DNA of 64,000 bases from the IMG/VR virus record IMGVR_UViG_3300010352_000625, positions 128,001 through 192,000 of that record; one strand, written 5' to 3'. The notes under the pieces are model-generated. The model did no database searches. It saw nothing but the letters and a program-made list of their open reading frames with translations, and was not told the origin of the DNA. The DNA comes from a virus (Duplodnaviria; Caudoviricetes). Each line of letters opens with the position of its first letter. The stretch's first letter is position 1. Made by a program: the position numbers and the translations under genes. Shown piece after piece: positions 11,078-39,182 of this stretch.

Positions 11078-11172
11078 ACCCTACACACTAGCTAGATATG
11101 TAGGGGTATAGTCCCATATTTCTCAATATGAGGGGCTTAACTAAATATTAGTACTAAATATTAGTTAAGGGA
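11078..11172 (-). terminator. Hairpins / intrinsic terminator downstream of Ro60
   Basis: CCCTACA...TGTAGGG stem followed by a T-run on the minus strand; second inverted repeat CTTAACTAA...TTAGTTAAG. Confidence 0.6.
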
Positions 11173-11178
11173 TTAATT

Positions 11179-12813
11179 TTAAATATTACCTTTACTAAAC
11201 TCAGCGATAATATTAGGAACACTAGCATCAAAACCAGCTATATCTAGCATACCCTTATCTTCTGGGTCAGCAATACTAAAATTGGTTGCCTCTGTAGCAC
11301 AAACTATCAACTTAGTATCCAGCTTCATCTTTTCTCTGTAATTCTTTAGCCCGGCAAATGGGTGAGTTCTTCCACACCAAGTGTCATTGTCAGTCCATAC
11401 GTTGAATACGTCAACTTCTATATTATTCTTCAAGGCCCAGTTAATAGCCGCTGAACAATCTGTACCACCCCAATTACTTCTTACAACCTTCTTACAAACT
11501 GAATCTAGTTTATCTGTCTTTGTTATACCTAGGTCAACAACTTCATCACAAAAACCAACTACATGTACATTAGGTTCAGTCTTTAGTAGTATCATAGACA
11601 TTGCCGCAGTTACTTCACAACTTCTAAGATTAGTGTTATTTATTGTTGAACTCATTGAACCAGATACATCAAGAGCTACCAGATATCTCTTGTTAGTTGG
11701 TTCAACATTATCAAACGCAAGATAAAAAGCATCTTCCAAAGCTGATTCAATTGCTGGTACTGGTGTCCAACTATTACTACCTCTAAATCCTTCACCAGCT
11801 GAATAAGTCTTCAATGCTATTAATATATTAATAGGATGTATTCTTGACTTGCGTATAACTTCCTTATTGCTCAAAGTCTTACATACCATCATAGTACCCT
11901 TGCTTAGTGGTGCCAAATAACCAATCATAGTCATTTTAGCTAGATTTCTAACTAGTGCTGTTATAGGCATAGTACAGTTTTCACCATCATTAGACATCAA
12001 AGCTTCCCATATATCAACTTCATTAAGCAACTGAGTTGGTACAGTTTCTCTAGGCATATTATATTTCTTTATCAGCTTAACAGCGTTCTTAACTGTATCA
12101 CCAGACATTTCTGACAGATACTTTTCAAAATTCATACCAAGATTAAACTGGTCTATTGCTGAATTAGTATCATCCAATACAGGAAGTACTTCATCATAAC
12201 CCTTTACAATCTTGTTGAATATATAAGCCATATCATTATTCGTAGCTACTGGATGTGAAAGAGCTATGGTATCCTTATGTGTCCAACCTTCACGATTCTT
12301 GTACTTAATTACCTGATATACCAACTGACTAGTATTCTTATCCAAATACCAATTAGCTATACACTTTCTAAGACCTCTACCCCAACCACGAAACTTCTGT
12401 ACGTCTTCTACAAACTGAAACAGATGTGTAGCAGTACGACATACCTTATTAAGATTTCTAAAAGCATAAGCCTTAACATCAGCATTACCAAAGGCACTAG
12501 CCAATGCCATCACAAATATTGCTGAGTCATTCTTAGGTGCTCTACCTGCATCACTTATCTTAACAGTTTCATATACTACTCTACAACCATCCTGTTCAAT
12601 AAGCTTCAATACATTTTCAGCATTTTCCTTAGACAACACTGAACCCTTAACATAATAAGAATTCTTTTCTGAACCCAATATTAGGAATCTATTTAGTCTA
12701 TCCCAATCACTAATTGTAAATACATATCCACCAGCGTTATTCTTAACCTGATTCTTACCAAATACTGATTCTGTTTGTGGAACATTTGTGATTATATCTG
12801 AATACTTTGTCAT
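11179..12813 (-). CDS. rsr: Ro60 / TROVE-domain RNA-binding protein (Rsr-like)
   Basis: N-terminal QVKNNAGGYVF..RFLILGS, KYKNREGWTHKD, MPITALVRNL and RIHP; vWA MIDAS DVSGSM, GGTDCS and WTDNDT. Confidence 0.95.
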   Translation of the reverse strand: MTKYSDIITNVPQTESVFGKNQVKNNAGGYVFTISDWDRLNRFLILGSEKNSYYVKGSVLSKENAENVLKLIEQDGCRVVYETVKISDAGRAPKNDSAIFVMALASAFGNADVKAYAFRNLNKVCRTATHLFQFVEDVQKFRGWGRGLRKCIANWYLDKNTSQLVYQVIKYKNREGWTHKDTIALSHPVATNNDMAYIFNKIVKGYDEVLPVLDDTNSAIDQFNLGMNFEKYLSEMSGDTVKNAVKLIKKYNMPRETVPTQLLNEVDIWEALMSNDGENCTMPITALVRNLAKMTMIGYLAPLSKGTMMVCKTLSNKEVIRKSRIHPINILIALKTYSAGEGFRGSNSWTPVPAIESALEDAFYLAFDNVEPTNKRYLVALDVSGSMSSTINNTNLRSCEVTAAMSMILLKTEPNVHVVGFCDEVVDLGITKTDKLDSVCKKVVRSNWGGTDCSAAINWALKNNIEVDVFNVWTDNDTWCGRTHPFAGLKNYREKMKLDTKLIVCATEATNFSIADPEDKGMLDIAGFDASVPNIIAEFSKGNI

Positions 12814-12921
12814 TTCTTATTACCATCCTTTATTTTTGATTTATTTTTAGATATAAAAAAACACCTTATAGCTATAAAACTAATCAGGTGTTTTTTTATC
12901 TTGTTATATATTTAAATAATA

Positions 12922-13054
12922 TTTTGGATAATTATTGCAGATTGGCTTAAAAATCATTCGATTTTTTATTGCTCAATTACAATTTGTGGAACAAGGTTAC
13001 ATATATTCATTCTGTATGTTAGAATTAGATAACCAACCTGCTCCGACCCAAAAT
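12922..13054 (-). ncRNA. Y-RNA-like gene 1
   Basis: 5' UUUUGGGUCGGAGCAGGUUGGUUAUC pairs with 3' GCCAAUCUGC-AAUAA-UUAUCCAAAA leaving a bulged C; immediately upstream of Ro60. Confidence 0.75.
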
Positions 13055-13064
13055 GTATTATGAT

Positions 13065-13155
13065 ATATATTAGATAAAAAAGCGAAAAACAATTTATAAA
13101 TTAAATTGTATTATTAATCATCCTATGATAATTGTTCTTCAGCGACCCAATATAT
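13065..13155 (-). ncRNA. Y-RNA-like gene 2
   Basis: 5' AUAUUGGGUCGCUGAAGAACAAUUAUC pairs with 3' AAUUGUUUUUC...UUAUCUAAUAU. Confidence 0.72.
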
Positions 13156-13217
13156 TAAGTTTTCAATGTTACATATATTAACTTATATTAATTTATAAAT
13201 TTTAAACATTATTTTAT

Positions 13218-13318
13218 GTGAACTAATTACAGTCTAAAGACTGTAATCTTCCTGATTCATCGACTACAGATTTCGCATAGTCTCCACAGGCTTGAATTCC
13301 CTAGGTATTTGATTTTAT
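13218..13318 (-). mobile_element. Non-autonomous IS200/IS605 right-end (omegaRNA scaffold) derivative
   Basis: Near-identical to 53035-53140, ends GTTCAC and is preceded by TTAC. Confidence 0.9.
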
Positions 13319-13362
13319 GTAACTTAAAATCTAATAAATAGATTTTATTATACAAAAATTAA

Positions 13363-13443
13363 GTTAGATAATTGTTGAAAAACAGATGTTTTCTGTTTAT
13401 AATTTATAAGATTATATGATAACTGTTTTTCTTCGACCCAACA
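13363..13443 (-). ncRNA. Y-RNA-like gene 3
   Basis: 5' GUUGGGUCGAAGAAAAACAGUUAUC (contains GNCGAAG) pairs with 3' CUGUUUUUC-AACAA-UUAUCUAAC. Confidence 0.78.
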
Positions 13444-13455
13444 TATTTATTAAAA

Positions 13456-13670
13456 TTGGCTGGGAAACATTTAAGTTTTACGGGGAAAAACTATCCCCAA
13501 CCCAAATTTACTAAGTTAATGATTGGCGTTATATAGAATGGTAACATAGATAAGACTATATAACATTTGATAGCATAGTACCCGTAAATTCCTGAAGCCA
13601 ACCAATTCAGTATTCCTATTGGTATTGGTGTAAACGATATTATGTCTATGCCCATAATAGGATAAAAAAT
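13456..13670 (-). ncRNA. Unrecognised structured RNA, copy A
   Basis: Paralogous to 13788-14004; identical 27-nt block plus compensatory changes in several helices. Confidence 0.7.
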
Positions 13671-13681
13671 ATTTAAATTAA

Positions 13682-13751
13682 TGGCAGTCGAATGAAGATT
13701 CGAACTCATTATAAATCGCACTTGATTGATAATCGATTACTACGACCCAAC
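13682..13751 (-). ncRNA. Y-RNA-like gene 4 with tRNA-like T-arm and CCA end
   Basis: 5' GUUGGGUCGUAGUAAUCGAUUAUC, then AUGAG-UUCGAAU-CUUCAU, then UCGACUGCCA. Confidence 0.65.
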
Positions 13752-13787
13752 TTATATTATTAACTTATATAAATTTAAAAATTAACT

Positions 13788-14004
13788 AACTTGGGATAAC
13801 TTCAATGAAGTTTTACAATCATTCAGGCGGGGGAGCCAGACCAACCCAAGTTTTTAAAGAACGCTGACATTATATAGAATGATTCATCTAGATAAGACTA
13901 TATAACATTTGATAGTATAGTACCCATAAACTTCTGAGGTCAGCTAACCCAGTACTCTATTATAATAACGATATCATAGCTATACCTACGATAGGATGAA
14001 AAAC
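13788..14004 (-). ncRNA. Unrecognised structured RNA, copy B
   Basis: See copy A; G-U pairs indicate the minus strand. Confidence 0.7.
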
Positions 14005-14187
14005 ATCAATAATTCAATATAGCTGAGTATAGTACACAAAGGAAATGATTTGTAAAAATAAAATGATTGAATTTTTTCGCATTACATAATAATTTACTTT
14101 TTAATTTCTTTATTAATAAAAATAATATTTGATAAGTTTAAAAATTATTTAATATATTCTCTCAGCTATATTGAATTGTCAATGTTC
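14003..14187 (-). other. Long inverted repeat (17 bp perfect, about 27 bp with G-U) enclosing an AU-rich loop
   Basis: AATTCAATATAGCTGAG (14011-14027) / CTCAGCTATATTGAATT (14161-14177). Confidence 0.75.
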
Positions 14188-14282: not shown

Positions 14283-14372
14283 AATATATAATAAAGATTT
14301 ATGTGGGCTAACCAATTTTTGGTTTTACAGGATTTATTACCAAACCCACAAATTTAAGGAATTTAATTATTT

Positions 14373-14759: not shown

Positions 14760-14995
14760 ATAAAGAGTATATCATGATATTGTTGGTTTGTCAAGTATTA
14801 ATTTAAAAATTAATTAAAAAATATTTTTTAATTAACTGAGAGTTTTAGTTGTTCTCAGCAACAAACATATTATATCATGTTTTTACTGTTTTGTCAAGTG
14901 TTAATTTTTGTTTATTTTTAATCTTTTTTCGTTTGAGAGTTTTAGTTGTTCTCAGCAACAAACATAGTATATCATAGTTTATATAATTTGTCAAG
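14760..14995 (-). promoter_or_regulatory. Three tandem TTGACA/TG-TATA(A/C)T promoters, two followed by an identical 33-bp leader
   Basis: TTGACA near 14789-14794, 14892-14897 and 14989-14994; repeat at 14837-14869 and 14934-14966. Confidence 0.8.
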
Positions 14996-17004: not shown

Positions 17005-17177
17005 ATCATAAACAATTCTATCTAAATCTATTTTTTCTCTATGATTTTTTAGCATATCTCGGTATAATTCTTGTTGTCTTTCATCTAAATCTAACATTTT
17101 GTGATTTAAAAAATAAAATGTATTATTCTCATTCATTTAATATTTCACTCTCTTTTATTTAACCCAATTTTAAACAC

Positions 17178-17335
17178 TTACGCCTATATATTCTATAGTG
17201 CTAAAAATAACCATTATGATACGCAAAGCGTTTATCTTTAATATTTACCTAGGATAGTTATTTTATCATTGTACGCCAGTATTTAGGAATCGAACCTCAA
17301 TAAGTGCATTGCTCTATAAAAATACATAGGCGTAA
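17178..17335 (-). ncRNA. Rod-like structured RNA containing a tRNA-type T-loop
   Basis: Terminal stem UUACGCCUAUGUAUU.../...AAUAUAUAGGCGUAA; internal AGG-UUCGAUU-CCU; inner stem AAAAUAACUA/UGGUUAUUUU. Confidence 0.6.
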
Positions 17336-17346
17336 ATATTTAATTA

Positions 17347-17807: not shown

Positions 17808-17998
17808 TGGGGTGAAGTGAACTAATTACAGTCTAAAGGCTGTAATCTTCCTGATTCATCGACTACAGATTTCATAGTCTCCACAGGCTTGAATTCCCTA
17901 GGTTCCCTAGGTATCTGTCTTAATATTAGTAAGGGAATTAAACCCTCGCCGTTCTGGTTCACAGCCAGACTGTACTTGTCAATTATACGAACAACACC
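17808..17998 (-). pseudogene. tRNA-His(GUG) interrupted by an IS-derived mini element
   Basis: TCTGG-CTGTGAA-CCAGA anticodon arm and G-1; the 3' end TTCACCCCA lies beyond the insertion. Confidence 0.8.
17817..17928 (-). mobile_element. Non-autonomous IS200/IS605 derivative in tRNA-His
   Basis: TTAC|TAATATTAAGACAGA...GTTCAC; matches the ends of 51745-53140. Confidence 0.9.
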
Positions 17999-38811: not shown

Positions 38812-39182
38812 TGGTGGAGTTAGGGGGAATCGAACCCCCGTCCAGATAAAATTTGTTCAGATTATCTACAAGTTTAGTTATTGTTAATTATTTTTAAAGT
38901 ATATAGCAATAACAAATATACTTATGATATATACAGTCTAAGTGAACTAATTACAGTCTAAAGGCAGTAATCTTTCTGTCTAAGTATAACTGTAACAATA
39001 CTATAAGCGTTGCTGAACTGTATTATACTGACTTCTAAACTAGTTTACAGCTTATCATTTAGGTCAGTACGGTTATGCCGCTAAAGCAAATTCGTTATTT
39101 GTTTTTTGTTGACAACTTTAAGGTGATTGTCTTCCCACTTGCAAATCTGTTTTAGTTTTATCGGTCGAAACCAATTAACCCC
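38812..39182 (-). ncRNA. ssrA: tmRNA
   Basis: 5' GGGGTTA...GGTTTCGAC, tag frame ...KTNNEFALAA*, 3' GGACGGGGGTTCGATTCCCCCTAACTCCACCA with G3.U70. Confidence 0.95.
38942..38991 (-). mobile_element. Ultra-short (about 41-50 bp) left/right-end fusion of the IS inside tmRNA
   Basis: TAGACAGAAAGATTACTGCCTTTAG (left end) joined to ACTGTAATTAGTTCAC (right end). Confidence 0.85.

What the first reader, a model, noticed from the sequence alone, without database searches (positions are those of the whole stretch)
13456..14004. Two copies of an unrecognised doubly pseudoknotted RNA inside the Ro60 array
Seen: copies A and B share an identical 27-nt block (13547-13573 = 13889-13915) and differ largely by compensatory changes. 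Hairpin AUUAUG/CAUAAU vs AUCGUAG/CUAUGAU has a loop GCAUAG vs GUAUAG that pairs with downstream CUAUGC vs CUAUAC. Hairpin CUGAA/UUCAG vs CUGGG/CUCAG has a loop GUUGGC vs GCUGAC that pairs with GCCAAU vs GUCAGC. There are also AAUUUAC/GUAAAUU vs AAGUUU/AAACUU and a shared UUAUAUAG/CUAUAUAA stem. Each ends in a UUGGGUUGG...CCCA hairpin containing CCCC and GUAAAACUU. I cannot match this to any RNA family I know. Inference: a new structured ncRNA class, perhaps a ribozyme, a scaffold or a Ro60 cargo.
Basis: seen in the sequence. Interest (0 to 1): 0.88.

Follow-up and report, generated by a model that had tools for sequence, protein, structure and literature searches.

The report
Double-knotted RNA in phage Ro60 operon
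A large uncultured bacterial virus carries two diverged copies of a roughly 210-base non-coding RNA, folded with two long-range "knots" that mutations have preserved, among the small RNAs in front of its Ro60 gene; it matches no catalogued RNA family, is not a standard Ro60 partner, and its job is unproven.

Summary
The feature is real. Copies A (13456-13663) and B (13788-13997, minus strand) are structured RNAs in a 207-kb T4-like phage. Of 11 pairs that differ between A and B, 10 stay paired (6 compensatory). Seven pairs are G-U in some copy and none is A·C, which fixes the strand. The second pseudoknot also varies compensatorily among B copies in sister phages, where B (95-97% identical) is more conserved than Ro60 four-fold sites (14-15% different). 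There is no Rfam hit at E≤10.

A is a recent insertion, absent from sister phages. The unit lacks the Y-RNA motif, and one contig keeps B without adjacent Ro60. No homolog was found outside this phage group, and no expression data could be obtained.

Best reading (0.4): a stable processed decoy or scaffold RNA from the tRNA–Ro60 transcript. A non-canonical Ro60 ligand (0.2) and a ribozyme (0.1) remain open. The scan noted this stretch in another window, and orphan phage-array RNAs in other genomes, but no sequence match elsewhere.

The parts
13863..13997 (-). Copy B knotted core: P1 13993-13972 (loop 13985-13980), P2 13952-13934 (loop strand 13944-13939), P4 13924-13911 (loop 13920-13915, kisses the P1 loop), P5 13906-13869, pseudoknot strand 13868-13863
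   Evidence: 95-97% identical in sister-phage contigs
13788..13852 (-). Copy B 3' tail: closing stem, C-rich hairpin, YGUAA linker, short AAC..GUU hairpin
   Evidence: closing stem probability 0.998
13522..13663 (-). Copy A knotted core: P1 13659-13638 (loop 13651-13646), P2 13610-13592 (loop strand 13602-13597), P4 13582-13569, P5 13564-13528, pseudoknot strand 13527-13522
   Evidence: seen only in this genome and in 100%-identical contigs L254 and L255
13456..13505 (-). Copy A 3' tail
   Evidence: closing stem probability 0.98
14302..14350 (-). Stand-alone tail module (T0) without a core, between the 113-aa ORF and tRNA-Leu
   Evidence: a tail descriptor gives exactly three hits in the genome: T0, tail B, tail A; fold
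13442..13750 (-). 309-nt block [Y-like/T-arm unit + copy A], a clean indel against sister phage L005, bounded by a short direct repeat at the Y-unit start
13660..13750 (-). Y-RNA-like unit with a T-loop (context)
   Evidence: motif scan
13361..13443 (-). Y-RNA-like unit (context)
13069..13150 (-). Y-RNA-like unit (context)
12921..13055 (-). Y-RNA-like unit; weak match to nematode sRNA family RF01656 (E 0.007, below the gathering score) (context)
11179..12813 (-). Ro60 (TROVE + vWA) gene, 544 aa
   Evidence: Pfam PF05731 and PF25045
14199..14282 (-). tRNA-Leu(UAA) heading the RNA array
14006..14182 (-). Long inverted-repeat stem directly 5' of B; AT-rich interior here, a ~200-nt structured insert ('C') in sister phages
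14766..14994 (-). Three sigma-70-type promoters (11, 12 and 11 of 12 matches); no comparable minus-strand promoter inside the array
11079..11105 (-). Intrinsic-terminator-like hairpin after Ro60; a homologous one follows B directly in contig L100

Best explanation
A and B are two members of an undescribed family of stable, independently folding phage RNAs. Shown from sequence: each has a ~140-nt core in which hairpin P2's loop pairs with the strand after P5 (an H-type pseudoknot whose long loop carries hairpins P4 and P5), while the 5' hairpin P1 kisses the P4 loop. A ~55-65-nt tail follows; the same tail closes two inserted protein-coding units (T0 in the window, and L114). Inferred: both are transcribed as part of one ~3.7-kb RNA (promoters 14766-14994, tRNA-Leu, B, Y units, A, Ro60, terminator 11079-11105) and released by cleavage in the AU-rich linkers, with the tail serving as a 3' processing/stabilising handle. 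Inferred and untested: the released compact, nuclease-resistant core acts in trans as a protein-binding decoy or scaffold within the phage's RNA-protection kit (20 tRNAs, tmRNA, RtcB, an ATP-dependent RNA ligase, Ro60). Its most likely target is a host ribonuclease or another RNA-recognising defence protein. It need not bind Ro60.
For: Fold: 10 of 11 changed pairs kept, 6 compensatory; 97% of cells paired against 28-42% for slid controls. RNA-level selection: 7 G-U pairs and 0 A·C on the minus strand. Purifying selection: B is 95-97% identical while Ro60 four-fold sites differ 14-15%. The P2 pseudoknot shows three paired allele states among 13 B-type copies (7 Watson-Crick, 4 double-wobble, 2 fully compensated) and never the mismatched state. 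Not a cis-leader: B is followed by a Y unit, an inserted ORF or a terminator in different phages. A 117-aa gene inserted behind B duplicates B's last 36 nt and leaves B whole. Operon signals. RNA-repair genes. Such kits are described as counter-defence in jumbo phages (PMC7824862).
Against: No partner protein was identified. All covariation comes from about three lineages of one phage group; P4 never varies and P5 changes on one side only at one pair. The absence of the mismatched allele state is not significant alone (about 0.19). No distant homolog was found, so conserved functional bases cannot be separated from shared ancestry. 'Decoy/scaffold' is chosen from context and by elimination.
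Confidence: 0.4

Rival explanations
1. Non-canonical Ro60 ligand. The GGGU-U-GG strand with a UYAUCC partner is a degenerate Y-type helix that tethers the knotted core to Ro60 as an effector module. The partner is either the tail's 3' end or the invariant 5' AUCC, the latter giving a circularly permuted Y stem (P0).
For: Both copies lie among Y-like units. A came in together with a Y-like unit. The tail's terminal stem resembles that of the Y units. 5' AUCC and GGGU are invariant in all rows and would abut P1 with no gap. Ro60 contacts mainly the 5' strand of the helix (PMC4201824).
Against: No GNCGAA or GGGUCG in either copy, and U replaces the conserved C; changing this motif abolishes binding in vertebrates (PMC4726728). 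P0 has no covariation and its probability is ≤0.002 with the tail present, 0.04-0.5 without it. B is kept with no adjacent Ro60 in L100 (a single 1.9-kb contig). It is absent from the Ro60 loci and records of 82 other viruses.
Confidence: 0.2
2. A new self-cleaving or processing ribozyme that cuts the tRNA/Y-RNA precursor, the ends then being substrates for the phage RtcB.
For: Compact doubly knotted fold; invariant unpaired bases (AAAU junction, UCUUA/CAUU loop); RtcB in the genome.
Against: No hammerhead CUGANGA, pistol or glmS core motif. No HDV-like topology, with a positive control that was found. No Rfam ribozyme hit. Most array units have no core beside them.
Confidence: 0.1
3. Exonuclease roadblock. 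The braced core stalls a 5'-3' exoribonuclease and so defines or protects the downstream Y RNAs and Ro60 message, as flaviviral xrRNAs do (analogy from own knowledge).
For: Each copy sits directly 5' of a Y-like unit; the 5' hairpin is locked by a kiss; the arrangement is tandem.
Against: In L100 nothing but a terminator follows B. The host, and whether it has RNase J, are unknown. No xrRNA-type ring was demonstrated.
Confidence: 0.1
4. RNA-only multimer. The P1/P4 kiss forms between molecules and builds rings or cages, as for ROOL/GOLLD or phi29 pRNA.
For: In ROOL a covarying kiss proved to be intermolecular (PMC12286853). P1 is on a 19-27-nt flexible linker.
Against: The RNA is far smaller than ROOL/GOLLD. 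The similarly sized raiA RNA is a monomer (same paper). A-to-B cross pairings carry 1-2 mismatches in one direction, so no designed heterodimer.
Confidence: 0.1
5. Not a trans RNA: a riboswitch-like leader, a small protein gene (76-aa ORF 13491-13721) or a DNA-level repeat.
For: A 76-aa GTG ORF overlaps A. The 5' and 3' partners of GGGUUGG are mutually exclusive, which could suit a switch.
Against: All six frames of B have 4-7 stops and the ORF has no Pfam match. The downstream neighbour varies. There is no terminator or SD to control. The G-U asymmetry argues against a DNA palindrome.
Confidence: 0.05

Closest known systems
Bacterial/phage Y RNAs: YrlA/YrlB (PMC4201824) and Thermus phage phiLo Yrl1/Yrl2 (PMC12135203)
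   Same: Encoded on the same strand within 2 kb upstream of Ro60; the tail's terminal stem resembles the Y lower stem; modular handle-plus-cargo design.
   Different: No GNCGAAN motif, no bulged C, no T/D-arm module; about twice the size; two pseudoknots; the large domain lies outside (5' of) the Y-like stem rather than inside it.
Orphan stable RNAs of phage tRNA clusters: T4 RNAC/RNAD (function unknown, PMC9697503); GOLLD and ROOL (PMC12286853)
   Same: Phage-encoded, next to tRNA genes, intricately paired, no known function; kissing loops and pseudoknots as in ROOL/GOLLD.
   Different: No Rfam match to GOLLD or ROOL; ~210 nt against 600-800+ nt; T4 RNAC/D were not aligned here; seen in one phage group only.
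raiA motif RNA (205 nt, monomer; PMC12286853)
   Same: Similar size, and a compact orphan RNA; its pseudoknots are from own knowledge.
   Different: No hit to any Rfam model at E≤10; no raiA gene context.
HDV-like (including phage theta) and other small self-cleaving ribozymes
   Same: Double pseudoknot; position near tRNA genes; A's tail contains one L3-like heptamer.
   Different: Nested P1/P1.1/P2/P3 topology and catalytic-C junction not found; the heptamer is absent from B.

Membership tests
Y RNA / Yrl | Encoded within 4 kb of Ro60 on the same strand | tested here: met
   640-1200 nt upstream, same strand; not met in contig L100
Y RNA / Yrl | GNCGAAN(0-1)G / GGUCCGA-like motif near the 5' end with a bulged C | tested here: not met
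   no GNCGAA or GGGUCG in A or B; GGGUUGG instead, near the 3' end
Y RNA / Yrl | 5' and 3' ends pair to form the Ro-binding stem | tested here: inconclusive
   a permuted 4-bp helix is invariant but shows no covariation and is out-competed by the tail stem
YrlA | tRNA-like T and D arms | tested here: not met
   no T-loop motif; no Rfam or ARAGORN hit
Y RNA / Yrl | Binds Ro60 | not testable with these tools
   needs EMSA or pull-down
HDV-like ribozymes | Nested double pseudoknot P1/P1.1/P2/P3/P4 with conserved L3 and J4/2 cytosine | tested here: not met
   0 descriptor hits on either strand; toy control found
Hammerhead / pistol / glmS ribozymes | Conserved catalytic core motifs | tested here: not met
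   motif scan negative; no Rfam hit
Any ribozyme | Catalysis in vitro | not testable with these tools
   needs a cleavage/ligation assay
GOLLD / ROOL / raiA / manA (Rfam) | Match to the family covariance model | tested here: not met
   no match at E≤10 over 13440-14020
T4 RNAC/RNAD-type stable array RNAs | Accumulates as a discrete processed RNA from a tRNA operon | not testable with these tools
Riboswitch / cis-leader | Constant position 5' of a regulated gene with an expression platform | tested here: not met
   downstream neighbour is a Y unit, an inserted ORF or a terminator

The most novel reading that the evidence does not exclude
The core is a new RNA fold with its own activity, either a catalytic RNA or an RNA-only inhibitor of a host defence nuclease. 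It is loaded on the phage Ro60 through a circularly permuted, U-bulged Y helix that forms only after the tail is cut off, giving a processing-activated Ro60 particle.
Probability: 0.1. Interest if true: 0.9.

Novelty: new variant of a known kind. Interest (0 to 1): 0.52.

Why it matters
It adds an undescribed ~140-nt two-knot architecture (a kissing loop plus an H-type pseudoknot with inserted hairpins) that is small enough for direct probing, cleavage assays and cryo-EM. It comes as two natural variants plus wobble intermediates that serve as built-in controls. It also shows that phage Ro60/Y arrays are exchangeable cassettes holding more than Y RNAs. Finding its partner would bear on what orphan phage-array RNAs do, a long-open question. 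Its importance is limited for now by a narrow known distribution and no functional data.

Tried and rejected
Homolog searches that found nothing beyond this phage group: four DNA patterns in IMG/VR; one pattern in GTDB contigs; blastn against INPHARED phages and PLSDB plasmids; covariance model R1 on 1.44 Mb of loci, 82 whole Ro60-bearing viral records (one hit at E 0.04, 19.6 bits, in what reads as coding DNA) and the nearest related phage G001, partly with filters off. R1 was built from 7 close sequences, so remote homologs could be missed.

False leads. L137 gave a pattern hit with an apparently compensatory P5, but it lies inside a 996-aa chemoreceptor-like ORF and has no P1/P2. The Monoglobus and Clostridium plasmid hits lack the structure. 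A/B shows no similarity to element C, to the RNAs at 30396-30614 and 17170-17343, or to the 300-nt element of L010 (z≤0.5).

Structures. P3 is rejected as a conserved helix. The alternative extension of P2 (3 always-paired bp beyond an RUA/RAR loop resembling a 5S loop-E submotif; resemblance from own knowledge) explains invariant bases but has no compensatory change, so it is unresolved. Resemblances of the tail to the SRP Alu UGUNR turn, a type-I hammerhead and attC were considered by eye and not supported.

Supplements of two RNA-motif surveys are not held, so an uncatalogued published candidate cannot be excluded. The host could not be assigned; the capsid protein is only 27% identical to the nearest isolate.

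Full report
Setting. The window is part of a 206,669-nt, 26% GC virus record with a T4-type major head protein only 27% identical to the nearest isolate. It encodes 20 tRNAs by ARAGORN, a tmRNA, RtcB, an ATP-dependent RNA ligase and a full Ro60 at 11179-12813 on the minus strand. Three near-consensus sigma-70 promoters at 14766-14994 and a terminator-like hairpin at 11079-11105 bracket a 113-aa ORF, tRNA-Leu, about 1.4 kb of non-coding DNA and Ro60. A single precursor transcript is inferred from this, not shown. The non-coding part holds four Y-like units (GGGUCG, 10-11 nt, UUAUC) and the two copies A and B.

Observation. On a nine-row alignment the named helices pair in 97% of cells, against 28-42% when partners are slid. 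The CUAURC partner of the first loop is itself the loop of a 4-bp hairpin, so the first knot is a 6-bp kiss; the second joins the P2 loop to the strand after P5. Between A and B, 11 of 38 core pairs change and 10 remain paired (6 compensatory, 4 wobble). Random placement of the same 17 substitutions breaks 9.4 pairs on average (P=2e-5, optimistic because the structure came from these sequences). Seven pairs are G-U in at least one copy and none is A·C, so selection acts on the minus-strand RNA. A sequence-free descriptor of the topology finds every complete copy and only two other sites in 1.8 Mb, one of them inside a Ro60 gene. Rfam has no match at E≤10. Half of the substitutions are in unpaired columns, so 'largely compensatory' overstates.

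Sister phages. Through Ro60 and a neighbouring ORF I recovered B in 15 contigs, four of them partial. B is 95-97% identical to the window copy, while four-fold sites of Ro60 differ by 14-15%, which indicates purifying selection. Among 13 copies with both strands of the second knot readable, 7 have GCUGAC/GUCAGC, 4 have GUUGGC/GUCAGC (two wobbles) and 2 have GUUGGC/GCCAAC; the mismatched combination never occurs. This is support independent of the A/B comparison, though not significant alone (about 0.19). A occurs only in this genome and identical contigs. Against L005 the 309-nt block of the T-loop Y unit plus A is a clean indel bounded by a short repeat at the Y-unit start. A differs from B at 25% of core columns, more than neutral divergence among sister phages, so it is probably an import from a more distant relative rather than a recent duplicate (inference).

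Corrections to the model. P3 is perfect in A but mismatched in the B lineage and has near-zero predicted probability in B, where its 3' strand is taken by the tail stem. An alternative short extension of P2 beyond an RUA/RAR loop accounts for several invariant bases but lacks covariation. The 3' 55-65 nt are a separable module: a descriptor (closing stem, YGUAA, AAY..RUU hairpin) hits exactly three places in the genome, namely tail A, tail B and a core-less copy at 14302-14350, plus a diverged copy behind an inserted ORF in L114. In several sister phages a 117-aa gene has been inserted behind B with duplication of its last 36 nt. An invariant 5' AUCC could pair with the invariant GGGU to give a permuted Y-like helix (P0), but the tail stem wins by 7-8 kcal/mol.

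Link to Ro60. Y RNAs are defined by a GNCGAAN motif near the 5' end and, in vertebrates, a bulged C needed for binding (PMC4201824; PMC4726728). A and B have neither. Other phage Ro60 loci with Y arrays (L002, L010, L120, L125 and more) have no detectable core, nor do 82 whole viral records. In L100, B is followed directly by a terminator homologous to the one behind Ro60 and then the DNA ligase gene; this is one short contig, and Ro60 could lie elsewhere in that genome. The association is therefore positional and not shown to be functional, although A travelling with a Y unit keeps it open.

Mechanism. The fold, strand and selection are shown. Co-transcription and processing are inferred. Function is chosen by elimination: not a cis-leader (variable downstream neighbour), not coding (stops in all frames of B), not a known ribozyme, not a canonical Y RNA. 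The most likely role is a stable decoy or scaffold RNA in the phage's RNA-protection kit, a kind of kit described for jumbo phages (PMC7824862), with the tail as a 3' handle (0.4). Rivals are a non-canonical Ro60 ligand (0.2), a new ribozyme (0.1), an exonuclease roadblock (0.1), a multimer (0.1) and a cis or non-RNA element (0.05).

Comparison and novelty. It works like the orphan stable RNAs of phage tRNA clusters, namely T4 RNAC/RNAD (function unknown, PMC9697503) and GOLLD/ROOL (PMC12286853), but it is a member of none by model match. It is best filed as an undescribed family with a new architecture within that known kind. Earlier notes of this scan describe similar orphan RNAs in other phages; none matched by sequence, and I could not compare their structures. 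Interest 0.52.

Noticed in passing
window 12921-13750 (-); also L002 228-567 and 4761-5582, L010 7336-7758, L031, L041: Arrays of 4-10 Y-like units with the GGGUCG-N9-12-UUAUC layout of animal Y/stem-bulge RNAs near phage Ro60 genes; one unit weakly matches a nematode family (RF01656).
   Followed up: partly
L004 4530-4760, L006, L007, L097 2215-2452, L114: Element 'C': a ~200-nt structured insert with a tail-like end inside the long stem 5' of B; no Rfam hit. In the window the stem (14006-14182) encloses only AT-rich sequence.
   Followed up: partly
window 14302-14350 (-); L114 2072-2146 (-): Core-less tail modules directly after the stop codons of inserted small ORFs; possibly a general 3'-end element of this operon.
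   Followed up: partly
L004 4951-5392; L006 1218-1659: A 117-aa orphan gene inserted behind B with a 36-nt duplication of B's 3' end, as in integration into tRNA genes.
   Followed up: partly
window 13219-13306, 17818-17903 and near 38940-38990; L120 550-710: A ~100-nt insert with a sub-threshold RAGATH-18 match (E 0.003), absent from L005; looks like a non-autonomous IS-end remnant.
   Followed up: partly
L006 480-725; L007; L097 1910-2150: tRNA-Leu(UAA) of sister phages is interrupted by what looks by eye like a group I intron; the window's tRNA-Leu is intron-free.
   Followed up: no
L010 6930-7215: A ~300-nt multi-stem RNA upstream of the Y array of the related phage G001, no Rfam hit at gathering scores, unrelated in sequence to A/B.
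   Followed up: partly
window 30396-30614 (-): A structured RNA with its own promoter, noted elsewhere as raiA-like; Rfam gave no raiA match at E≤1.
   Followed up: partly
window 13845-13858 (-) and near 13160-13180 (-): boxA-like sequences of rRNA-leader type just before tail B and before a Y unit; not conserved in A.
   Followed up: no
window 32673-32745 (-): A further Y-handle/T-arm unit 19 kb from Ro60.
   Followed up: no
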